Shown: in pieces, positions 5,402 through 17,043 of the stretch | How the letters are laid out: each line of letters begins with the position of its first letter | Position numbering within the stretch: position 1 is the stretch's first letter | IMG/VR virus record: IMGVR_UViG_3300029193_000102 | Span: 1 to 33,477 of that record | Source of the DNA: a virus | Taxonomy: Duplodnaviria > Heunggongvirae > Uroviricota > Caudoviricetes | DNA length: 33,477 nucleotides | Strand: one strand, 5' to 3' | Made by a program: the position numbers and the translations under genes | The notes under the pieces: model-generated | What the model saw: only the letters and a program-made list of their open reading frames with translations | What the model was told of the DNA's origin: nothing | Databases searched by the model: none

Positions 5402-5459
5402 AAAAAGGGCGGCAGAGCAGTCACGGAGTAAAACTGATACCGCCAAACGTCACCAGAAA
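5402..5459 (-). ncRNA. dicF: DicF small RNA (53 nt at 5407..5459) with 3' stem-loop and U-tract
   Basis: Minus-strand sequence TTTCTGGTGACGTTTGGCGGTATCAGTTTTACTCCGTGACTGCTCTGCCGCCC followed by TTTTT matches recalled DicF; lies upstream of dicB as in the Qin dicB operon. Confidence 0.7.
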
Positions 5460-7141: not shown

Positions 7142-7211
7142 ATAATAGATGCGATTACCGCAAGGTAAACAACCTGTGGGTATTGACTTTTGTTTACCTG
7201 TGGGTATTCTT
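7142..7211. promoter_or_regulatory. Divergent promoter/operator region: direct repeats ACCTGTGGGTATT (7172..7184, 7196..7208) overlapping a rightward promoter (-35 TTGACT 7183..7188, -10 ~7205..7211) and a leftward promoter (-35 GTTTAC 7165..7170 rc, -10 TATTAT 7142..7147 rc)
   Basis: Repeats and hexamers read directly; spacings 16-17 bp; placement between the divergent repressor and Cro-like genes. Confidence 0.4.
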
Positions 7212-7926: not shown

Positions 7927-7948
7927 AAGCACGGTGTTCGGGGGGTTT

Positions 7949-8911
7949 ATGAGCAGCAAGCTTCATGGTCTTGTCTGGGAAGGGTGCGCCTTCACCGGCA
8001 TGATCTTATCCAGGGTGGCGGTTATGGCCCGTCTTGCAGACTACAGCAATGACGAGGGCGTGTCATGGCCTGCCATTGAAACTATCCGGCGTCAGATCGG
8101 TGCAAGAAGTGAATCCACAGTGAAATCGGCTATTGCAGAACTGGCGAAAGAGGGCTGGCTGACGAAGGAAGAGCGTAAGGTCGGTGGGCGTAATGTAAGC
8201 AATATCTATCGGCTTAATGTGGAAAAACTCGAAGCAGCTGCGGCGGCGGCGCGTGAGTCATATAAACCGAAAAGAAAAATTAGCCCGGCAAAAAATGACC
8301 CGTTAACAGTTGACCCGTCAAATATTGACCCCTCAACGGTTGACCCGTCAAATTTTGATGGATCAACTGTTGATAAAAAACTGCCGATTAGGGGGGCGAT
8401 GATTGACCCCGATCCGTCAGTATTAAAACCTGATCCGTCAGATAAAAGATCTTCTTGTCCGGACGCTTCGCAACCGGACCCGCAGACGGCTGAACAGGAT
8501 TTTTTAACCCGACACCCTGACGCGGTTGTGTTCAGTGCGAAAAAACGCCAGTGGGGAAGTCAGGAAGATTTGGTGTGCGCACAGTGGATCTGGGGACGAA
8601 TCGTGAGTCTTTACGAGCAGGCGGCCAGCTATGATGGCGAGATCACTAGACCGAAAGAACCCAACTGGACAGCATGGGCCAATGACGTTCGCACAATGCG
8701 GATGCTGGATGGCAGAACTCACAGACAAATTTGTGAAATGTTTGGGCGTCTCCAGCGGGATTCGTTCTGGGTAAAAAACATCATGAGTCCGGCAAAACTC
8801 CGGGAAAAATGGGATGAACTGGTTATCCGCCTGGGGCGTTCGCCTGCGCAGCGTTGCGTGAATCACATTTCTGAACCGGACACTGAAATTCCGCCGGGCT
8901 TCAGGGGGTGA
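7949..8911 (+). CDS. Replication initiator (lambda O-like role) with N-terminal winged-helix domain and internal pentapeptide repeat
   Basis: ATG 7949 after G-rich SD (ORF track starts at GTG 7934); N-terminal HTH-type domain; immediately followed by a DnaC-like loader; contains iteron array. Confidence 0.7.
   Translation: MSSKLHGLVWEGCAFTGMILSRVAVMARLADYSNDEGVSWPAIETIRRQIGARSESTVKSAIAELAKEGWLTKEERKVGGRNVSNIYRLNVEKLEAAAAAARESYKPKRKISPAKNDPLTVDPSNIDPSTVDPSNFDGSTVDKKLPIRGAMIDPDPSVLKPDPSDKRSSCPDASQPDPQTAEQDFLTRHPDAVVFSAKKRQWGSQEDLVCAQWIWGRIVSLYEQAASYDGEITRPKEPNWTAWANDVRTMRMLDGRTHRQICEMFGRLQRDSFWVKNIMSPAKLREKWDELVIRLGRSPAQRCVNHISEPDTEIPPGFRG
8310..8441. repeat. Iteron-like direct repeats (TTGACCCGTCAAAT family) with exact 15-bp periodicity inside the initiator gene; candidate replication origin
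   Basis: Copies start at 8310, 8325, 8340, 8355, 8370, with degenerate copies at 8403 and 8431; they encode the repeated VDPSN(I/F)D peptide. Confidence 0.5.
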
Positions 8912-8917
8912 CGTGTC

Positions 8918-9664
8918 ATGAAAAACATTGCGGCAGTTGGGGTTCTTGAACGTATTCGCAGACTTGCACCACAGGGGGCGGTTCCACCGTACCGGACGGT
9001 GGAGGAGTGGCGGGAATGGCAACTTGCTGAAGGACGAAAACGCAGCGAGGAGATTAACCGCCAGAATCGCCAGTTGCGGGTGGAAAAAATCCTGAATCGT
9101 TCGGGCATTCAGCCTCTGCACAGCAAATGCTCGTTTGCAAATTATCAGGTGCAGAACGACGGGCAAAAATACGCGCTGAGCCAGGCCAAATCCATAGCTG
9201 ACGAACTGATGACCGGGTGCACGAATTTTGTGTTCAGCGGTAAAACCGGCACCGGGAAAAATCACCTTGCAGCGGCGATGGGCAACCGGCTGATGGTGAA
9301 GGGGCGCAGCGTGATTATCGTCACCGTTTCTGACGTCATGAGCGTGTTGCATGACAGCTACGACAACGGCAAATCCGGGGAAAAATTTTTACAGGAGCTT
9401 TGCGGGGTTGATTTGCTGGTCCTGGATGAAATAGGCGTTCAGCGGGAGACGAAAAACGAGCAGGTGGTATTGCACCAGATAATTGATCGCCGGACAGCAT
9501 CACTGTGCAGTGTCGGGATGTTAACAAACCTGAATCATGCCGCAATGAGTACGCTTCTTGGTGAGAGGATTATGGACCGCATGACCATGAACGGTGGTCG
9601 ATGGGTGACGTTTAACTGGGATAGCTGGCGTCCAAATGTCAGCAATATGAGGGTTGTGAAGTAA
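8918..9664 (+). CDS. DnaC-like helicase loader (IstB-type AAA+ ATPase)
   Basis: 248 aa; Walker A GKTGTGKNHLAAAMG, Walker B LLVLDEIG. Confidence 0.85.
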   Translation: MKNIAAVGVLERIRRLAPQGAVPPYRTVEEWREWQLAEGRKRSEEINRQNRQLRVEKILNRSGIQPLHSKCSFANYQVQNDGQKYALSQAKSIADELMTGCTNFVFSGKTGTGKNHLAAAMGNRLMVKGRSVIIVTVSDVMSVLHDSYDNGKSGEKFLQELCGVDLLVLDEIGVQRETKNEQVVLHQIIDRRTASLCSVGMLTNLNHAAMSTLLGERIMDRMTMNGGRWVTFNWDSWRPNVSNMRVVK

Positions 9665-9685: not shown

Positions 9686-10456
9686 ATGGAAACCGTATCT
9701 GACGCACTGAAAGCACTGAAAAAAGCCTCTTCACATGTGGTGGCAGCTCGCCTTGGAATCAGTCGTGAAGAGGCTGTCAACGAGCTGTGGGAACTCAAAA
9801 GAAAAGGCGTCGTTGATAAAACTGGTCACACCTGGTTTCTGGCTGGCGAAGGTGAATCCCGGGTAACCGAAGAGCGGCCAGTAAAATCTGAAGCACAGGA
9901 TATGCTGACCGGGGAGGTCGAACAAAAAGTTACCGCAGACATGATGATTGAGTTTATCGGTCAGGATGGGGCTAAAACGTGTGAGGAACTGGCGGGTAAG
10001 TTCGGTGTCAGTACTTGCAAGGTTGCTTCCACGCTGGCGGTGGTAACCGCAACGGGGCGGCTGGCACGCGTTAATCAGAACGGTAAATTTCGTTACTGCA
10101 TGCCGGGCGATAATTTACCAGCAGAGCCGAAAGCCGCGCTGGTAACGGAAAGTGATGGTAAGGCCTTTCCTCAGCCAGCAGGTGCTGCGTTACCAGTCCG
10201 GGAAGCCGCAACACAGGAAGAAATTAAAACAGAAACTGTGGCGGACATTGTGCAGCCGTTGCCATCGTTTACCGAAACGCAAGCAGATGAGCTGATTTTT
10301 CCGTCCCTTCGCAGGGCAAACCTGGCGCTGCGCAGGGCGAAAAGTGATGTTCAGAAGTGGGAGCGAGTCTGCGCCGCGCTGCGGGAGCTGAACAAGCACC
10401 GGGATATTGTTCGACAGATTACTGATTCTTCCCGCCGTGTTGTATCGGAAAAGTGA
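9686..10456 (+). CDS. Hypothetical early protein, 256 aa, two winged-helix-like segments
   Basis: GGAGG SD; SHVVAARLGISREEAVNELWELKRKG and TCEELAGKFGVSTCKVASTLAV segments. Confidence 0.55.
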   Translation: METVSDALKALKKASSHVVAARLGISREEAVNELWELKRKGVVDKTGHTWFLAGEGESRVTEERPVKSEAQDMLTGEVEQKVTADMMIEFIGQDGAKTCEELAGKFGVSTCKVASTLAVVTATGRLARVNQNGKFRYCMPGDNLPAEPKAALVTESDGKAFPQPAGAALPVREAATQEEIKTETVADIVQPLPSFTETQADELIFPSLRRANLALRRAKSDVQKWERVCAALRELNKHRDIVRQITDSSRRVVSEK

Positions 10457-10471
10457 TTGCCGGAGGCGCTT

Positions 10472-10864
10472 ATGGCAAAAGTATTTACACCAGAAGAGCG
10501 GGAAGAAGTGAAGGCGCGCATTGTGGAATTCGTGCGCCTGAGCGGACGAGAAACTTTTCGACAACTGGCAGATAAAACGGGTGTCAGTAAGACCGCTATT
10601 CGTCGTTTATCTGGTGCGCTTGCGGCCAGTGGTGATGTCTGGCTCTCTGGTTGCGGGGTATTTCCATCAGAGCAGGCGTATCGCGTATGGCGTAAGACAC
10701 CGGAGAAGGCTGCTGACCCGACACTGATTCGAAAGTTACCTGACGGAGAAATACGTCGTTACAACAGACGGCAGAACATAATTTTTCGTGAGTGCCGCCA
10801 GAGCGAAGTTATGCAGCGTGTGCTGGCGTTCTATCGGGGAAACTTTCAGGAGGTGATGGAGTGA
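10472..10864 (+). CDS. Hypothetical early protein, ~130 aa
   Basis: ATG 10472 with GGAGG 6 nt upstream (ORF track begins at TTG 10457). Confidence 0.5.
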   Translation: MAKVFTPEEREEVKARIVEFVRLSGRETFRQLADKTGVSKTAIRRLSGALAASGDVWLSGCGVFPSEQAYRVWRKTPEKAADPTLIRKLPDGEIRRYNRRQNIIFRECRQSEVMQRVLAFYRGNFQEVME

Positions 10865-11157
10865 GGGTCAGAGTTTATATTGCCGGTCCAATGACGGGAT
10901 ATGAAAATTTCAACCGTGAGGCGTTTCACAAGGCGGAAGAGGAACTGAAACGGGAAGGGCATACCGTCTTAAACCCGGCAGTACTTCCGGACGGGCTGAC
11001 ACAGCCGCACTACATGGATATTTGCATGGCAATGATTCGTTGTGTGGATGCGATTTACATGCTGAATGGCTGGCAGCGGTCAGCGGGCGCTAAGGCAGAG
11101 CTGGCACTGGCGGAGAAACTGGGGCATGCAGTGATTTATCAGGAGGTGGCTCAATGA
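10861..11157 (+). CDS. DUF4406-like protein (nucleoside 2-deoxyribosyltransferase-like fold family)
   Basis: GTG 10861 overlapping upstream stop, GGAGGTG just upstream; motif VYIAGPMTGYENFNREAFHKAEEELKREGH. Confidence 0.5.
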   Translation: MRVRVYIAGPMTGYENFNREAFHKAEEELKREGHTVLNPAVLPDGLTQPHYMDICMAMIRCVDAIYMLNGWQRSAGAKAELALAEKLGHAVIYQEVAQ

Positions 11158-11615
11158 GAGAGGTTAACTATGAGGCGCTTCGTGAGGCAGCACAAAACTA
11201 TCAGTCGACGCTGGCGTGGTATCAGGCTATCCCGGACAGCCCAAATGCTGAACGGGATTGTGATGCGGCTCTTGCTGCGTTTAAGCGTCACATCCGTCAT
11301 CGGGAAGCGGATATTATCGCTGATTTGCTGGATGGACTGGAAGAAGCAAAATCACAACTCAAAGAGCAGCGTGAGTATTACGAAGGCGTTATCTCTGATG
11401 GGAGCAAGCGTATTGCTGAACTGGAAGCGCGGGAAGTTCAATTACCGACTCGCTACGACCTTCGATATGGACACCCGATAAATGCAGATGAGCGACATGT
11501 CATGATACCTAAAGAAAATGGCAGTTGGCTTTACCTGATTGACCTAGAACACGCATTACGCGTCTCTGGCATTCGCATCAAAGGAGAGGAGCATGGAAAT
11601 AAAACCAGAGGATGA
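11154..11615 (+). CDS. Hypothetical early protein, 153 aa
   Basis: ATG 11154 overlaps upstream stop (ATGA); AGGAGG SD. Confidence 0.55.
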   Translation: MREVNYEALREAAQNYQSTLAWYQAIPDSPNAERDCDAALAAFKRHIRHREADIIADLLDGLEEAKSQLKEQREYYEGVISDGSKRIAELEAREVQLPTRYDLRYGHPINADERHVMIPKENGSWLYLIDLEHALRVSGIRIKGEEHGNKTRG

Positions 11616-11949
11616 GTTAAGCAATATCGTTTTATTTCCGGTAAAAGAGGATGACCCTCGTAATCAGGTTAATTTTCTTTATGAGCCATCGGAAAGACCA
11701 TATTGTCATCACGCCTCTGTCCGGGTTGACGAAAAAGAGCGTCAGGTCCGCTGTAAAATCTGCGGTGCAGTTGTGGAGCCATTTGACTGGATGCTCTCTG
11801 TGGCGAAAAGAGAAACCAGACTGGCAGATGATGTAAGGCACTTGCGCCAGGAGGAGCGGGAAAGGCGAAAAAATATAGAAAAGCTAATTCAGATTGAGCG
11901 TAACGCGAAAGCGCGGATACGCAGGGCGACAAAATCCAGAACTGAATAA
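11593..11949 (+). CDS. Hypothetical zinc-ribbon protein, 118 aa, Arg/Lys-rich C-terminus
   Basis: AAGGAGAGGAG SD; CHH...CKICG motif. Confidence 0.55.
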   Translation: MEIKPEDELSNIVLFPVKEDDPRNQVNFLYEPSERPYCHHASVRVDEKERQVRCKICGAVVEPFDWMLSVAKRETRLADDVRHLRQEERERRKNIEKLIQIERNAKARIRRATKSRTE

Positions 11950-12042
11950 TTAAATTTAGCTTTGTTAAAAATTTAATCCTTAACCGGAGGGATTTCTGCA
12001 CCCTCAGAACATCAGGAAGCCGCCCGAAAGGGCGGTAGTTAA

Positions 12043-12225
12043 ATGCGAAAGTTTAAAATAATTATTGAAACGGGAATAGCCGGTGGAGATTTCGAGGATG
12101 AATTCGAAGTGGATGATGATGCGACGCCTGATGAAATACATGACGAAGCAAAAGATATTTTCTTTAACTACTGCAATTACTCATATCACGAAATAAAAGA
12201 CGAAGAGGAAGAGCAAAATGGCTGA
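12043..12225 (+). CDS. Hypothetical small acidic protein, 60 aa
   Basis: ORF with ATG at 12043 preceded by a short hairpin (12020..12035); very acidic composition. Confidence 0.4.
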   Translation: MRKFKIIIETGIAGGDFEDEFEVDDDATPDEIHDEAKDIFFNYCNYSYHEIKDEEEEQNG

Positions 12226-12394
12226 TTTTGGTTCAACTAAATACAACGTCAGTTTTGAAGCATGGCATGAACTGTTAATGGACTATGCAGAGTTACGTGG
12301 TGGCAGTGCTGCTGATGCTGAAGCATGGCGTGATGATTATGAAGCAGGAAAAACTCCGGTCGAAGCATATTGTGATGAGTGGGGCGATGAATGA
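12218..12394 (+). CDS. Hypothetical 58-aa protein (below the ORF-track size cut-off)
   Basis: ATG 12218 overlaps the upstream stop and its TGA overlaps the next ATG (12391); translated by hand as MADFGSTKYNVSFEAWHELLMDYAELRGG...CDEWGDE. Confidence 0.4.
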   Translation: MADFGSTKYNVSFEAWHELLMDYAELRGGSAADAEAWRDDYEAGKTPVEAYCDEWGDE

Positions 12395-12906
12395 GCGAGA
12401 TTAATTATCAGGAAGGGCATGAAACGGCAGGGCAGGCAAAACCAGTTGCATGGCGATATCGCTACGTGAAAAAAGACGTTACAGACTTTCAGGGGAAGCC
12501 GTGGGCTGGTGACTGGAAATATGTACCGACAAAAGAGGATTGTAACGACAGGCCGAACTATGAAATTCAGGCCTTATTCATCGGCCCGCCAGTCCCGGTG
12601 ACATCAGAAGGACTGGTTAAAGCCGTGCGCTTTTATGAACAGGTAAAGCGTGAGAATCCGCCAGTCGAAACAGGAGCATGGAAGGATGCTGTTGACTGGG
12701 TGCTCAGAGAGGCCTGCTGCGCTGCCATTCTGGGTAAAGCCGACAATCCACCAGCATCCGGCAATCAGGTTAGCGAATTAACAATGTGGGTTAAACGACT
12801 GGTCAGTCAACTGAAAAAAGCTCAGCCGGACTGCAAATTACCGGAGAAGGCGATGGATTACCTGAAACGAAATGGACTGATAAGCGTGGAGGATGTTTTA
12901 CGATGA
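12391..12906 (+). CDS. Hypothetical early protein, 171 aa
   Basis: ORF track; translationally coupled to the upstream small ORF. Confidence 0.55.
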   Translation: MSEINYQEGHETAGQAKPVAWRYRYVKKDVTDFQGKPWAGDWKYVPTKEDCNDRPNYEIQALFIGPPVPVTSEGLVKAVRFYEQVKRENPPVETGAWKDAVDWVLREACCAAILGKADNPPASGNQVSELTMWVKRLVSQLKKAQPDCKLPEKAMDYLKRNGLISVEDVLR

Positions 12907-13026
12907 ATATTTAGACTAAAGAGTTTGTAACGCTATGTAAGTGATTTTTTCTGGTTTAGATATTTATATGTCCGGCCAAATTGAGGTGTGTTTAAATGTT
13001 ATTGCTCATTGATTGTAGGGGGAATA

Positions 13027-13206
13027 ATGAAAAACGCATTGCAGTTTTTGTTTGTTGCGTTCTGGTTGTTCGCATCATGTATGCCCATCATCTTCACAGC
13101 AAGGTATATGGAAAAAATTGATGTTTTGATATTAATGTTTGGACATATAAATGCCCTTTTTTTAGGGGTGTTCATGGCGGTCATGTGCATTGAATACTGG
13201 CGGTAA
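13027..13206 (+). CDS. Small two-helix membrane protein (59 aa) in an AT-rich islet
   Basis: ATG 13027 with GGGGGA upstream; two hydrophobic stretches; surrounding DNA is conspicuously AT-rich. Confidence 0.4.
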   Translation: MKNALQFLFVAFWLFASCMPIIFTARYMEKIDVLILMFGHINALFLGVFMAVMCIEYWR

Positions 13207-13465
13207 ATACAGCGAACGCCATTGGTTTAGTTGGATATTTACTGTGCCGGACAAAAACGGTTTGCGGGGAAATCTTAGTTAAGTAGAATAACTGCGGGTG
13301 CTTGAGGCTATCTGTCTCAGGCATGAACACCAAAAGGCAGATAGAGAAAAGCCCCAGTTAACATTACGCGTCCGGCAAGACGCTTAACATTAATCTGAGG
13401 CTCAATCTATGAACGGCAAATCTAGGTTAGCCTCTTACGTGCCGAAAGGCAAGGAGAAGCAGGCT

Positions 13466-13621
13466 ATGAAGCAGCAAAAGGCGATGTTAGTCGCCCTGAT
13501 CGTCATCTGTATTACCGTCATTGTGACGGCACTGGTAACGAGGAAAGACCTCTGCGAGGTACGAATCCGAACCGGCCAGACGGAGGTCACTGTCTTCACA
13601 GCTTACGAACCTGAGGAGTAA
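13466..13621 (+). CDS. hok: Hok/Gef-family type I toxin (HokD/RelF-like)
   Basis: 51 aa MKQQKAMLVALIVICITVIVTALVTRKDLCEVRIRTGQTEVTVFTAYEPEE, near-identical to recalled HokD; AAGGAGAAG SD 7 nt upstream. Confidence 0.8.
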   Translation: MKQQKAMLVALIVICITVIVTALVTRKDLCEVRIRTGQTEVTVFTAYEPEE

Positions 13622-13691
13622 GAGACCAGGCGAGGGGGAAATCCCTCGCCACCTCTGATGAGTCAGGCATCCTCAACGCACCCGCACTTAA

Positions 13692-13717
13692 CCCGCTTCG
13701 GCGGGTTTTGTTTTTTC
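13692..13717 (+). terminator. Rho-independent terminator after hok
   Basis: CCCGC-TTCG-GCGGG followed by TTTTGTTTTTTC. Confidence 0.55.
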
Positions 13718-16486: not shown

Positions 16487-16804
16487 GTGGTAAATTGGCG
16501 GCTGGTGGGTGTGGTGGTTGTTGCTTTCCCGTTGCTGAAAAAGAAAACGCCAGACTGTTAGCCGGGTATCAGTTATCTGGAGAAATTTTTAAATACCTCA
16601 CAATTCAGGCGGTTGACTGTTGTCTGGTTTGCGGGGAGTTTGTTAAAAGAAACTGGCATGGTGAATCCCCCTGTGCGGAGGGGCAATCAGCAACTGGTGT
16701 TTTGTCACCGACCCTTATCCTTTCTGTGCGGGTTCAGGTGCTGATACTGAACTCACCGGGAGGCACCCGGCATCATGTGCATGATGATACAGATACGCGG
16801 CTTT

Positions 16805-16830
16805 AGCCCCTCTCCGGAGGGGCTTTCTTG
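16805..16830 (+). terminator. Rho-independent terminator (plus strand)
   Basis: AGCCCCTC-TCCG-GAGGGGCT followed by TTCTTG. Confidence 0.45.
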
Positions 16831-16835
16831 TGGGC

Positions 16836-16861
16836 AAAAAAAAGCCCGAGTGGGTTCGGGC
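16836..16861 (-). terminator. Rho-independent terminator (minus strand), convergent with the previous one
   Basis: A8 run then GCCCGA-GTGGGT-TCGGGC on the plus strand, i.e. hairpin plus U-tract on the minus strand. Confidence 0.4.
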
Positions 16862-17043
16862 AACAGCATGAGATATACATTTTTATAATCGAATGGATTT
16901 TAACCAGAATTCATAAGGCTGCGCAACTGCGCGGTCTTTTTCGAATTGCGGGCTGTCGTCTCTCTTCTGCCATTGTCCTGTAACTTCCGGACTTCAGCCT
17001 GCTCCTTATCTGACTCACAATATTATCCCGGCCGGGAGGATTC

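What the first reader, a model, noticed from the sequence alone, without database searches (positions are those of the whole stretch)
9686..12906. Block of eight translationally coupled early genes of unknown function, including a DUF4406-like protein
Downstream of the replication genes, eight ORFs (256, ~130, 98, 153, 118, 60, 58 and 171 aa) are packed with overlapping or adjacent stop/start codons (for example ATGA at 11154 and 12391, GTGA at 10861). One has the YIAGPMTG motif of the nucleoside 2-deoxyribosyltransferase-like DUF4406 fold, one is a zinc-ribbon protein, and the first has two winged-helix-like segments. This is the genome position where lambdoid phages tend to carry host-takeover and anti-defence genes, but I cannot assign any of them a function.
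Basis: partly seen in the sequence, partly recalled or inferred. Interest (0 to 1): 0.5.

Follow-up and report, generated by a model that had tools for sequence, protein, structure and literature searches.

The report
Mosaic accessory early genes of prophage
The eight tightly packed genes are real, but they are an ordinary, already-annotated mix-and-match set of accessory early genes in a Rac-like E. coli prophage (including relatives of lambda Ren, lambda Ea22 and K-12 YdaW), not a single new system.

Summary
Eight same-strand ORFs (256, 130, 98, 153, 118, 60, 58 and 171 aa) fill 9686-12906 at about 97% coding density.

The window is a Rac-like lambdoid prophage of E. coli. The block is 99.8% identical to annotated RefSeq genomes. 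It lies in the pR early operon, after YdaS/YdaT-like regulators, an initiator and a DnaC-like loader.

- g1: DUF1627, a K-12 YdaW homolog.
- g2: DUF977, a lambda Ren homolog at Ren's map position.
- g3: DUF4406, a minimal NDT/DNPH1-fold protein with the Tyr and Ser-x-Gly-x-x-x-Glu catalytic motif conserved.
- g4: Ea22-like N-terminus and coiled coil with a different C-terminal domain.
- g5: conserved CHCC zinc ribbon plus a basic helix.
- g6 (DUF7167) and g7: small acidic proteins.
- g8: three-module mosaic of the Ea22 milieu.

The block is not a unit. The exact order occurs in 14 of 59 related loci (26 combinations) and in 189 of 5426 E. coli genomes. The g4-g8-type cassette sits in the exo-xis (pL) region of some Stx phages. 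Functions remain unproven. Counter-defence or lysis-lysogeny tuning is plausible for g1, g2 and g4.

The parts
9686..10456 (+). g1, 256 aa: DUF1627 protein with two winged-helix segments (about residues 1-56 and 73-138), an acidic linker and a C-terminal helical part. Homolog of K-12 Rac YdaW.
   Evidence: PF07789 at 1.3e-97 and phrog_630 at 1e-132. 54% identity to K-12 YdaW over residues 1-154, E=1e-53. The second winged helix resembles the Ren-type domain: phrog_142 at 3e-6, blastp to g2 E=3e-4, Ren-only HMM 17.8 bits against 2.8 bits or less for controls. pN/pS 0.45.
10472..10864 (+). g2, 130 aa: DUF977 protein, homolog of lambda Ren (winged helix plus a conserved C-terminal FRECRQSxxMxRVLAxY motif).
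   Evidence: PF06163 at 1.8e-40; phrog_142 'Ren-like exclusion protein' at 4e-43. Blastp to lambda Ren: 30% identity over 90 aa, E=1e-10. Same map position as ren, directly after the replication genes.
10861..11157 (+). g3, 98 aa: DUF4406, a minimal four-strand version of the nucleoside 2-deoxyribosyltransferase / DNPH1 / MilB N-glycosidase fold. Its GTG start overlaps the g2 stop (GTGA).
   Evidence: PF14359 at 5.7e-38; PF05014 (NDT) only 14.4 bits, below its cut-off. AF2 pLDDT 90.5. Foldseek PDB top hits are NDTs, DNPH1 and MilB, TMq 0.70-0.77, prob 1.0. Y6, S74, G76 and E80 conserved in 80-81 of 81 diverse members and aligned to DNPH1 Y24, S98, G100 and E104. pN/pS 0.12.
11154..11615 (+). 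g4, 153 aa: Ead/Ea22-like protein. It has the Ea22-type N-terminus and coiled coil and an unrelated C-terminal domain (about residues 97-153).
   Evidence: PF13935 at 9.5e-12, 46.1 bits against a cut-off of 27. Blastp to lambda Ea22: 39% identity, E=8e-17, ending at the coiled coil. No PDB sequence match to the Ea22 CTD.
11593..11949 (+). g5, 118 aa: CHCC zinc-ribbon protein followed by a near-invariant basic helix (residues 84-110). It overlaps g4 by 23 nt.
   Evidence: phrog_1621 at 2e-56. C38, H40, C54, C57 and the LRxEExxRRxNIxKLIQIERNAKARIR helix are invariant in 20 homologs. The family is restricted to Enterobacterales. No PDB hit with the profile. pN/pS 0.14.
12019..12036 (+). Hairpin GCCGCCC-GAAA-GGGCGGT inside the 93-nt g5-g6 gap (11950-12042). 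It ends 6 nt before the g6 start and has no T-run.
   Evidence: RNA fold of 11945-12050: MFE -28.7 kcal/mol, z = -2.68. Not called as a terminator. The gap is a mosaic joint: ArgO145 carries an extra gene between the g5 and g6 homologs.
12043..12225 (+). g6, 60 aa: DUF7167, very acidic (pI 4.05, 20 Asp/Glu), low GC (0.37), no recognisable Shine-Dalgarno site.
   Evidence: PF23768 at 7.9e-15; phrog_1997 at 9e-31. Properties. pN/pS 0.07. Found in only 17 phage records, all enterobacterial temperate phages.
12218..12394 (+). g7, 58 aa: small acidic protein (pI 4.06) with an internal EAW(H/R) repeat. No Pfam family.
   Evidence: phrog_519 (C-terminal part) at 2e-22. Homologs at 52-57% identity in virulent Vi01-like Ackermannviridae. 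pN/pS 0.15. Internal repeat is D5.
12391..12906 (+). g8, 171 aa: three-module mosaic protein (about residues 15-64 beta module, 60-115 helical, 108-171 helical) with an Ea22-type MSEINYQ N-terminus. ATGA overlap with g7 and no Shine-Dalgarno site.
   Evidence: phrog_660 at 4e-75; partial phrog_250 (Ea22 group) match. The modules occur separately and fused to other N- and C-termini, including DUF551 and Ead_Ea22. AF2 pLDDT 61.7 with breaks at 66-71 and 114-124. No PDB fold match. pN/pS 0.23.
7183..7210 (+). pR-like promoter (TTGACT-16-TATTCT) that most likely drives the operon containing g1-g8.
   Evidence: Consensus scan. It lies between the divergent repressor-like gene and the YdaS-like cro analogue. 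Inference only.
7934..9664 (+). Replication module directly upstream: an HTH_36/DnaD_N-like initiator (7934-8911) and an IstB/DnaC-like helicase loader (8918-9664).
   Evidence: Pfam; RefSeq annotation. Same order as ydaU-ydaV-ydaW in K-12 Rac.

Best explanation
The segment 9686-12906 is the accessory ('ren/nin-like') part of the rightward early operon of a Rac-like lambdoid prophage. It is transcribed from pR, after the cro/cII analogues and the replication genes, when the prophage is induced or the phage infects. It is not one machine. It is a string of single-gene (at most two-gene) modules that recombine at gene boundaries and at short conserved gene starts. The same genes therefore appear in many combinations, and even in the leftward exo-xis region of Stx phages.

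Likely roles, all inferred:
- g1 (YdaW-like) and g2 (Ren-like) are small winged-helix proteins that protect phage development against abortive-infection or exclusion systems of the host and its resident prophages. Lambda Ren counters Rex. YdaW was a hit as a blocker of the retron-Sen2 toxin.
- g3 is an active minimal N-glycosidase. It would cleave the base from a nucleoside 5'-monophosphate-type substrate through a covalent Glu80-ribosyl intermediate assisted by Tyr6, altering a nucleotide pool or destroying a nucleotide-derived molecule.
- g4 is an Ea22-type coiled-coil oligomer that biases the lysis-lysogeny decision and presents a different C-terminal ligand domain from lambda's.
- g5 is a zinc-ribbon/basic-helix binder of nucleic acid or of a host protein.
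- g6 and g7 are small acidic proteins that act as stoichiometric inhibitors of host proteins.
- g8 is another Ea22-milieu adaptor.

Shown here: gene reality, family membership, homology to Ren, Ea22 and YdaW, the NDT-like fold and motif conservation, operon placement, mosaicism. Inferred: every biochemical or biological role.
For: Context:
- 99.8% identity to an annotated E. coli prophage next to tRNA-Ser/mtfA.
- Rac-type upstream module.
- pR-like promoter and no internal + strand promoter or terminator signals.

Mosaicism:
- The exact eight-gene order occurs in 14 of 59 close loci with full flanks, among 26 compositions.
- Whole block in 189 of 5426 complete E. coli genomes, against g3 in 1210, g6-g7 in 1909 and any piece in 3760.
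- The g4-g8-type cassette lies between exo/ssb and int in Stx phage ArgO145.
- g8 and g5 homologs are fused to varied partners.
- The MSEINYQ-type start is shared by g8, lambda Ea22 and ArgO145 gp13.

Individual genes:
- g2 to lambda Ren, E=1e-10, at the same map position. Ren interacts with Rex proteins in a two-hybrid assay (bioRxiv 10.1101/2021.04.19.439022).
- g1 to K-12 YdaW, E=1e-53. ydaW is listed among prophage blockers of the retron-Sen2 toxin RcaT (bioRxiv 10.1101/2020.06.22.160242).
- g4 to lambda Ea22, E=8e-17. Ea22 is pro-lysogenic and tetrameric, with variable CTDs (PMC10834534).
- g3 fold and motif.
- g7 homologs in virulent phages argue for a role in lytic growth.
- Purifying selection on g3 and g5-g8.
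Against: - No function was tested.
- The Ren anti-Rex role rests on classical genetics that I recall (Toothman and Herskowitz, 1980), not on a paper read here. The one paper read calls Ren 'likely involved in DNA replication'.
- The YdaW evidence is a screen hit in a preprint, for a truncated K-12 protein that is only 54% identical to g1.
- The g3 catalytic mapping relies on a fold match plus a statistically weak alignment (E=0.064). g3 lacks the C-terminal third of NDT/DNPH1 enzymes, so it could be inactive on its own or have a different chemistry.
- pN/pS for g2 and g4 is uninformative.
- The promoter and terminator statements come from consensus scans only.
Confidence: 0.75

Rival explanations
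1. The genes are accessory replication and nucleotide-metabolism factors rather than counter-defence or host-takeover genes. g1 and g2 would be DNA-binding modulators of the adjacent initiator and loader. g3 would be a nucleotide-pool enzyme supporting phage DNA synthesis.
For: The genes sit directly after the initiator and DnaC-like loader. Ren is described as 'likely involved in DNA replication' and interacts with O-related partners in a two-hybrid assay. In 80 diverse genomes, the recurring neighbours of DUF4406 are RusA-, DnaB-, C5-methylase- and exonuclease-like genes. A phage NDT has been proposed to bias dA pools in dZ phages (bioRxiv 10.1101/2025.10.22.683976).
Against: All are dispensable in the sense that related prophages lack them in any combination. 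The g4-g8-type genes occur in the exo-xis region, away from the replication genes. There is no match to any characterised replication protein family.
Confidence: 0.25
2. The eight genes form one co-functioning multi-protein system (an operon-encoded machine, or a toxin-antitoxin-like set such as g2 neutralising the NDT-like g3).
For: Overlapping stop/start codons link g2-g3-g4-g5 and g6-g7-g8. A Ren-like gene was present near DUF4406 in 79 of 79 close loci.
Against: Only 14 of 59 close loci keep the full order. g3 is found with g1 only, with g2 only, or followed directly by g6-g8. Across species, a Ren-like gene accompanies DUF4406 in only 4 of 78 loci, and 94 of 134 immediate neighbours are singletons. 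The literature prop for a g2-NDT link failed, because YdaW is a g1 homolog, not a g2 homolog.
Confidence: 0.05
3. They are prophage-encoded defence or superinfection-exclusion genes that are expressed in the lysogen and benefit the host.
For: Prophages often carry such cargo. PHROGs files the g2 family under 'moron, auxiliary metabolic gene and host takeover'.
Against: No credible PADLOC match for any of the eight (best E=0.0022, scores under 16 bits). There is no internal promoter-like site, and the genes have the same orientation as the repressed pR operon. g7 relatives occur in strictly virulent phages.
Confidence: 0.07
4. They are decaying, non-functional remnants of a cryptic prophage.
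For: Rac-like prophages are often defective. The integrase is frameshifted in the closest genome. pN/pS for g2 (0.78) and g4 (0.60) is high, but it rests on only 35 and 52 differences.
Against: All eight reading frames are intact and conserved in hundreds of genomes. pN/pS is 0.07-0.23 for g3 and g5-g8. The catalytic and zinc-binding residues are invariant.
Confidence: 0.03

Closest known systems
Lambda ren / nin region (accessory genes between the replication genes and Q in the pR operon)
   Same: Same operon and map position. Tightly packed small genes with overlapping stops and starts. g2 is a sequence homolog of Ren. RusA and Q follow downstream, as the lambda nin genes precede Q.
   Different: Apart from Ren, none of the lambda nin genes (ninB-ninI) is present. 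The content is instead DUF1627, DUF4406 and an exo-xis-type cassette.
Exo-xis (ea) region of lambda and Stx phages, with Ea22
   Same: g4 shares the N-terminus and coiled coil of lambda Ea22. The series Ea22-like / zinc-ribbon / DUF7167 / 58-aa protein / MSEI(N/D)YQ-start protein is found, nearly identical at the DNA level through the first 22 nt of g8, in the exo-xis region of Stx phage ArgO145.
   Different: Here the cassette lies in the rightward (pR) operon rather than the leftward (pL) one. The g4 C-terminal domain is unrelated to the solved lambda Ea22 CTD. orf60a, orf61 and orf63 are absent from the block.
K-12 Rac prophage ydaS-ydaT-ydaU-ydaV-ydaW
   Same: Same gene order. g1 is the full-length counterpart of YdaW.
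   Different: K-12 Rac is deleted after ydaW, so it has no counterparts of g2-g8. K-12 YdaW keeps only the two winged-helix segments.
DNPH1 / Rcl, MilB/BcmB and nucleoside 2-deoxyribosyltransferases (NDT superfamily)
   Same: g3 has the same Rossmann-like fold. It has the beta1 Tyr and the Ser-x-Gly-x-x-x-Glu motif, with Glu at the position of the DNPH1 nucleophile E104 and Ser at the position of S98. From my recollection of the DNPH1 literature, S98 binds the 5'-phosphate; that role was not checked here.
   Different: g3 has only 98 residues and lacks the C-terminal strand and helices that complete the active site in NDT and DNPH1 dimers. It scores below the PF05014 threshold. No substrate is known for any DUF4406 protein; none of the three papers that mention it has the term in its title or abstract, and I did not open them.

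Membership tests
DUF4406 (PF14359) | Score above Pfam's gathering threshold over the full model | tested here: met
   129.7 bits against a cut-off of 22; residues 4-93 match model positions 2-91 of 91.
Nucleoside 2-deoxyribosyltransferase family proper (PF05014) | Score above Pfam's gathering threshold | tested here: not met
   14.4 bits against a cut-off of 28.8.
Nucleoside 2-deoxyribosyltransferase family proper (PF05014) | Full-length (about 130-160 aa) fold including the C-terminal elements | tested here: not met
   g3 has 98 aa and covers only about half to two-thirds of NDT and DNPH1 chains (TMt 0.47-0.57).
NDT / DNPH1 / MilB superfamily (fold level) | Flavodoxin/Rossmann-like beta-alpha fold matching solved members | tested here: met
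   AF2 pLDDT 90.5. Foldseek PDB: 2a0k, 8pqt, 6qai, 9da6, 4jem and others, TMq 0.70-0.77, prob 1.0.
NDT / DNPH1 / MilB superfamily (fold level) | Catalytic Glu nucleophile and beta1 Tyr at equivalent positions | tested here: met
   E80 conserved in 80 of 81 and Y6 in 81 of 81 diverse members. They align to DNPH1 E104 and Y24 (the alignment is weak on its own at E=0.064, but its register agrees with the secondary structure). The DNPH1 sequence was verified against PDB 8qhr.
NDT / DNPH1 / MilB superfamily (fold level) | N-glycosidase or transferase activity | not testable with these tools
   Needs a biochemical assay.
Lambda Ren family (phrog_142 / DUF977, PF06163) | Sequence homology to lambda Ren and a profile score above threshold | tested here: met
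   PF06163 138.6 bits against a cut-off of 22.1; phrog_142 at 4e-43. Blastp to lambda Ren E=1e-10.
Lambda Ren family (phrog_142 / DUF977, PF06163) | Position immediately downstream of the replication genes in the pR operon | tested here: met
   Here g1 lies between the loader gene and g2.
Lambda Ren family (phrog_142 / DUF977, PF06163) | Confers resistance to Rex exclusion | not testable with these tools
   A genetic phenotype; known for lambda Ren from my own knowledge only.
Ead/Ea22 family (PF13935) | Pfam score above threshold; Ea22-type N-terminus and coiled coil | tested here: met
   46.1 bits against a cut-off of 27. 39% identity to lambda Ea22 residues 1-118, E=8e-17.
Ead/Ea22 family (PF13935) | Lambda-type C-terminal domain (solved by NMR) | tested here: not met
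   The alignment stops at the coiled coil. No PDB sequence hit for g4. Stx-phage Ea22 proteins also differ here (PMC10834534).
Ead/Ea22 family (PF13935) | Location in the exo-xis region of the pL operon | tested here: not met
   g4 lies in the pR operon, downstream of the replication genes.
DUF1627 (PF07789) / YdaW | Pfam score above threshold; homology to K-12 YdaW | tested here: met
   324.4 bits against a cut-off of 28.1. 54% identity to YdaW, E=1e-53.
DUF7167 (PF23768) | Pfam score above threshold | tested here: met
   55.1 bits against a cut-off of 24.4.
Zinc-ribbon proteins | Two conserved metal-ligand pairs (CxH ... CxxC) | tested here: met
   C38, H40, C54 and C57 invariant in 20 homologs. 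The TFIIB-type Pfam model itself is below threshold (21.6 against 29), so this is a generic zinc ribbon, not a TFIIB family member.
Known anti-phage defence systems (PADLOC-DB) | Significant match of any of the eight proteins to a defence-system model | tested here: not met
   Best E=0.0022 with scores under 16 bits, all on generic HTH segments.
Single co-inherited operon system | Constant gene content and order across related elements | tested here: not met
   14 of 59 loci have the full order, among 26 compositions. 189 of 5426 genomes hold the whole block, against 1210-1909 for single modules.
Translationally coupled gene string | Stop/start overlaps or gaps of a few nucleotides at every junction | tested here: inconclusive
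   Five of the seven internal junctions overlap (-4, -4, -23, -8, -4). One has a 15-nt gap and one a 93-nt gap. Functional coupling was not tested.

The most novel reading that the evidence does not exclude
DUF4406 (g3) may be a widespread, minimal phage N-glycosidase acting on a nucleoside 5'-monophosphate-type molecule that matters for immunity. It could destroy a nucleotide-derived defence signal or a toxic nucleotide analogue, or interfere with NDT-type defence effectors such as those of type II retrons. In the same reading, the neighbouring Ren-like winged-helix proteins (g1, g2) and the small acidic proteins (g6, g7, the latter shared with virulent Vi01-like phages) would be new families of abortive-infection and defence inhibitors. 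The segment would then be a compact anti-defence island whose members each have a new mechanism.
Probability: 0.15. Interest if true: 0.6.

Novelty: already known. Interest (0 to 1): 0.25.

Why it matters
These families sit in a fifth to a third of complete E. coli genomes, and DUF4406 occurs in hundreds of phages of many phyla, yet none has a demonstrated biochemical function. The practical value of this work is a sharper list of experiments:
- Ren-like and YdaW-like winged-helix proteins against Rex and retron abortive infection.
- A defined catalytic hypothesis for DUF4406 (Tyr6 and Glu80, with a 5'-phosphate-type Ser74).
- Two acidic mini-proteins as candidate inhibitors.

It also shows that the 'exo-xis' cassette studied in Stx phages moves between the pL and pR operons. 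That matters for interpreting expression studies of Stx prophages. As a discovery, however, it is ordinary: a known, annotated, mosaic accessory region.

Tried and rejected
1. **g2-g3 two-gene module (Ren-like antidote plus NDT-like enzyme).** Rejected. The linkage is lineage-local: 79 of 79 close loci but only 4 of 78 diverse loci. Its literature prop was my error: K-12 YdaW is homologous to g1, not g2.

2. **D53 as the catalytic Asp of g3.** It is invariant in the enterobacterial alignment but present in only 36 of 81 diverse members, so I dropped it. D63 is acidic in 78 of 81.

3. **Sequence searches of the PDB.** g1, g2, g3, g4, g6 and g7 were searched singly, and g3 and g5 as profiles. 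Nothing significant came back.

4. **hhalign of the shallow g3 alignment against DNPH1.** Uninformative. It worked only with the diverse profile, and even then it is not significant on its own.

5. **g8 structure.** The AF2 model is low-confidence (pLDDT 61.7). Foldseek against the PDB found nothing, and against BFVD only low-TM hits. No fold assignment was made.

6. **Rfam.** No RNA family inside the block.

7. **Repeat and tandem-repeat scans.** Only short chance-level repeats, apart from a 27-nt g1/g2 HTH repeat.

8. **'LygF' label.** No relevant article turned up under this name among those listed.

9. **PADLOC.** No defence-system match.

10. **RcaT as an NDT-like protein.** I could not confirm this in the papers I read. 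Only retron-Eco1's effector is stated to be NDT-like.

Full report
**What is there**

| Gene | Coordinates | Size |
|---|---|---|
| g1 | 9686-10456 | 256 aa |
| g2 | 10472-10864 | 130 aa |
| g3 | 10861-11157 | 98 aa, GTG start |
| g4 | 11154-11615 | 153 aa |
| g5 | 11593-11949 | 118 aa |
| g6 | 12043-12225 | 60 aa |
| g7 | 12218-12394 | 58 aa |
| g8 | 12391-12906 | 171 aa |

The quoted overlaps are exact: GTGA at 10861 and ATGA at 11154 and 12391. In addition, g4 and g5 overlap by 23 nt and g6 and g7 by 8 nt.

The run is not seamless. There are 21- and 15-nt gaps before g1 and g2. A 93-nt gap between g5 and g6 holds a stable hairpin, GCCGCCC-GAAA-GGGCGGT, at 12019-12036 (MFE of the gap -28.7 kcal/mol, z = -2.68). 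The hairpin has no T-run and is not called as a terminator.

g1-g5 have GGAGG/AGGAG cores 5-8 nt upstream of their starts. g7 has only GAGG. g6 and g8 have no recognisable Shine-Dalgarno site. Termination-reinitiation coupling is therefore most credible for g8.

**Are they genes?**

Every ORF matches a Pfam or PHROG family at E <= 1e-11. Pooled pN/pS against 80-99.5% identical homologs is:

| Gene | g1 | g2 | g3 | g4 | g5 | g6 | g7 | g8 |
|---|---|---|---|---|---|---|---|---|
| pN/pS | 0.45 | 0.78 | 0.12 | 0.60 | 0.14 | 0.07 | 0.15 | 0.23 |

The g2 and g4 values rest on only 35 and 52 differences and are uninformative. The comparisons are pairwise to one reference and not independent, so these are rough figures.

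**Context**

The block is 99.8% identical over its whole length to E. coli M15 and about 99% identical to many other complete genomes. RefSeq annotates the same eight genes there as DUF1627, DUF977, DUF4406, ead/Ea22-like, hypothetical, DUF7167, hypothetical and hypothetical.

The element is a lambdoid prophage beside tRNA-Ser/mtfA. Upstream of the block lie:
- a divergent repressor gene;
- a YdaS-like cro analogue and a YdaT-like gene;
- an HTH_36/DnaD_N-type initiator (7934-8911);
- an IstB/DnaC-like loader (8918-9664).

This is the ydaS-ydaT-ydaU-ydaV-ydaW order of K-12 Rac. Downstream come hokD/sok, DUF968, RusA and Q.

A pR-like promoter lies at 7183-7210. No + strand promoter-like or terminator-like site falls inside the block, and the first + strand terminator is at 13690 (consensus scans only). 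The placement 'early genes downstream of the replication genes' is therefore right. It corresponds to the ren/nin position of lambda.

**Gene by gene**

**g1.** It scores 324 bits on DUF1627. Weak HTH matches lie at residues 18-48 and 85-137. It is 54% identical (E=1e-53) to K-12 YdaW over residues 1-154.

I first equated YdaW with g2, misled by labels in phage records. A direct comparison showed no similarity between YdaW and g2, and I corrected this.

ydaW is listed among the prophage genes that block the retron-Sen2 toxin RcaT in an overexpression screen (bioRxiv 10.1101/2020.06.22.160242). It also appears among predicted MarR-type transcription factors of unknown function (PMC9308461).

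**g2.** It is DUF977 and phrog_142, 'Ren-like exclusion protein'. It aligns with lambda Ren at 30% identity over 90 residues (E=1e-10). The strongest match is in the C-terminal FRECRQS..M.RVLA.Y motif.

Ren is the lambda gene that lets the phage escape Rex exclusion. That is classical genetics which I recall, not a paper read here. A recent preprint reports two-hybrid interaction of Ren with Rex proteins and calls Ren 'likely involved in DNA replication'.

g1's second winged helix is a distant relative of the g2/Ren domain. The evidence is weak but specific:
- phrog_142 at 3e-6;
- blastp E=3e-4, with a colinear second segment;
- a Ren-only HMM scoring 17.8 bits on g1 and 10.6 on YdaW, against 2.8 or less for six control proteins;
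- a 27-nt, 78%-identical DNA repeat in the HTH parts.

**g3.** It is DUF4406 (129.7 bits) and scores below threshold for the NDT family proper (14.4 against 28.8).

With a 33-sequence alignment, AlphaFold gives pLDDT 90.5. Foldseek's best PDB matches are all NDT-superfamily N-glycosidases: T. brucei and Chroococcidiopsis NDTs, human and rat DNPH1, and MilB/BcmB. TMq is 0.70-0.77 and probability 1.0. TMt is only about 0.5, because g3 lacks their C-terminal third.

I verified my recalled human DNPH1 sequence against PDB 8qhr. A profile of 81 diverse DUF4406 proteins then aligns full-length to it. E=0.064 is not significant alone, but the register agrees with the predicted secondary structure. 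The alignment places Y6 on Y24, S74 on S98, G76 on G100 and E80 on the nucleophile E104.

These columns are conserved in 80-81 of 81 members. S74, G76 and E80 were not part of the retrieval patterns. D53 looked invariant in enterobacteria but is not conserved across the family (36 of 81).

From the DNPH1 literature as I recall it, Ser at the -6 position from the nucleophile binds the 5'-phosphate, where true NDTs have Asp. I therefore predict a nucleoside-5'-monophosphate N-glycosidase rather than a nucleoside transferase. This is an inference.

None of the three papers that mention DUF4406 has the term in its title or abstract, and I did not open them. The family is in 344 phage records, including Vibrio, Arthrobacter, Mycobacterium, Aeromonas, Pseudomonas and Rhizobium phages.

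**g4.** It passes the Ead_Ea22 threshold (46.1 against 27). It is 39% identical (E=8e-17) to lambda Ea22 through the N-terminus and coiled coil. Its last ~55 residues are unrelated to Ea22, and it has no PDB relative.

Ea22 is a tetrameric, pro-lysogenic exo-xis protein whose C-terminal domain differs between lambda and Stx phages (PMC10834534).

**g5.** C38-x-H40...C54-x-x-C57 is invariant, as is a basic helix at residues 84-110, in 20 homologs down to 45% identity. The family is confined to Enterobacterales and lambdoid/Stx phages.

**g6 and g7.** g6 is DUF7167. Both are very acidic (pI 4.05 and 4.06) and of low GC. g6 is found only in enterobacterial temperate phages.

g7 has 52-57% identical homologs in virulent Vi01-like Ackermannviridae (155 of 172 phage records are below 60% identity; Vi01_151c). 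This argues against a lysogeny-specific role for g7.

**g8.** It has no Pfam family. Homolog coverage patterns and the breaks in a low-confidence AF2 model agree on three modules, at about residues 15-64, 60-115 and 108-171. In other prophage proteins these modules are joined to different N- and C-termini, including DUF551 and Ead_Ea22. Its MSEINYQ start is the Ea22-type start. Fold searches gave nothing usable.

**Is it a unit?**

No.

- Of 59 IMG/VR loci that carry a close g3 homolog and have full flanks, 14 have the order g1-g8, and 26 different compositions occur. Examples are g2-g3 alone, g1-g3-g4..., and g3 followed directly by g6-g7-g8.
- Among 5426 complete E. coli genomes, 189 hold the whole block, 1210 hold g3, 1909 hold g6-g7 and 3760 hold some piece.
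- In the Stx phage ArgO145, an Ea22-like gene, the g5, g6 and g7 homologs and an MSEIDYQ-start Ea22-like gene lie between exo/ssb and int. That is the leftward exo-xis region. An extra gene is inserted at the position of the 93-nt gap.
- Across 80 genomes of different species, DUF4406 has no conserved neighbour. 94 of 134 flanking ORFs are singletons, and the recurring ones are RusA-, methylase-, DnaB- and exonuclease-like. A Ren-like gene accompanies it in only 4 of 78 loci.

This rules out my working idea of a g2-g3 pair.

**Interpretation**

The best-supported reading is a mosaic accessory segment of the pR early operon. It is built from independently exchangeable genes whose products modulate host and phage physiology early in lytic development. 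Two members (g1, g2) have relatives linked experimentally to escape from abortive-infection systems. One (g4) has a relative linked to the lysis-lysogeny decision.

No protein matches a known defence system, and no RNA family lies in the block.

The main rival is that g1-g3 are replication or nucleotide-supply accessories. It cannot be excluded, because of their position and DUF4406's neighbours in other species.

**Novelty and score**

Every gene is already annotated in RefSeq and classified in PHROGs, and six of the eight are in Pfam. The arrangement is present in hundreds of sequenced genomes, and the region type (ren/nin and exo-xis accessory genes) is textbook. New here are only refinements:
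- the g2-Ren, g1-YdaW and g4-Ea22 links;
- the relocation of an exo-xis cassette into the pR operon;
- the catalytic-motif argument for DUF4406;
- the virulent-phage relatives of g7.

I rate the finding 'already known' with interest 0.25. The most novel reading not excluded is that several of these are new anti-defence proteins, including a nucleotide-directed minimal N-glycosidase. I put that at about 0.15.

Noticed in passing
window 11950-12042 (hairpin 12019-12036): The only sizeable non-coding gap in the block. It folds into a GNRA-type tetraloop hairpin that ends 6 nt before the g6 start, and g6 has no Shine-Dalgarno site. In Stx phage ArgO145 an extra gene occupies the corresponding position. 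It could be an RNA processing or stability element, or a control of g6 translation.
   Followed up: partly
window 13018-13206 (+): An ORF of 62 aa (MKNALQFLFVAFWLF...) with two hydrophobic segments lies between g8 and hok/sok. It is not annotated in the 99.8%-identical RefSeq genome and has no Pfam match. It may be a small membrane protein or a spurious ORF.
   Followed up: partly
window 13296-13471 and 13409-13621; terminator 13690-13707: A hokD/sok type I toxin-antitoxin locus (Rfam sok at 112 bits) lies directly downstream of the block and is followed by the first + strand intrinsic terminator.
   Followed up: no
window 16627-16835 (+) and 16839-16891 (-): Rfam hits to the sRNAs STnc100 (130.6 bits) and AsxR, the 'anti-stx2' sRNA (63.0 bits, exactly at its threshold), near the Q / late-promoter region of this prophage. 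The nearest RefSeq genome has three tRNA genes near this place, but the window has only tRNA-Ser at 892-981.
   Followed up: no
window 5407-5458 (-): DicF sRNA (76.7 bits), in the region where the nearest RefSeq genome annotates dicB. It belongs to the leftward early region of the same prophage.
   Followed up: no
K-12 locus L166:4253-4813 versus window g1 and g2: K-12 YdaW is a truncated DUF1627 protein (a g1 homolog), not a DUF977 protein. In several phage records the stretch spanning the g1 3' end and the g2 5' end carries the labels 'putative YdaW family protein' and 'LygF', which misled me into equating YdaW with g2/DUF977.
   Followed up: yes
phage record PP818812.1 (H2); locus L086 (JAIHTM010000290.1); locus L097: A record named 'Actinobacillus phage vB_Apl-pPE4' shares 88% nucleotide identity with this E. 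coli prophage block over 47% of it. MAG contigs labelled Collinsella sp. and Actinomycetes carry 94%- and 63%-identical DUF4406 genes (the Collinsella one with a Ren-like neighbour). These are probably host misassignment or mis-binned enterobacterial prophage contigs.
   Followed up: no
Salmonella phage Vi01, L167:3001-3195 (Vi01_151c): A 64-aa homolog of g7 (about 54% identity) lies in a cluster of small uncharacterised genes next to the major capsid gene of a virulent 157-kb phage. The family is common in Vi01-like phages of Salmonella and Klebsiella.
   Followed up: partly
proteins P0389, P0428, P0425, P0417, P0392 (g5 homologs): Some database proteins join the g5 zinc-ribbon module to Ead_Ea22, DUF977, DUF1627 or DUF1133 segments. 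These may be real fusions created at the overlapping gene junctions, or frameshift/annotation artefacts.
   Followed up: no
window 12256-12270 and 12319-12333 (within g7): A 15-nt direct repeat (93% identical), 63 nt apart, encodes a duplicated EAW(H/R) motif in the 58-aa acidic protein.
   Followed up: no
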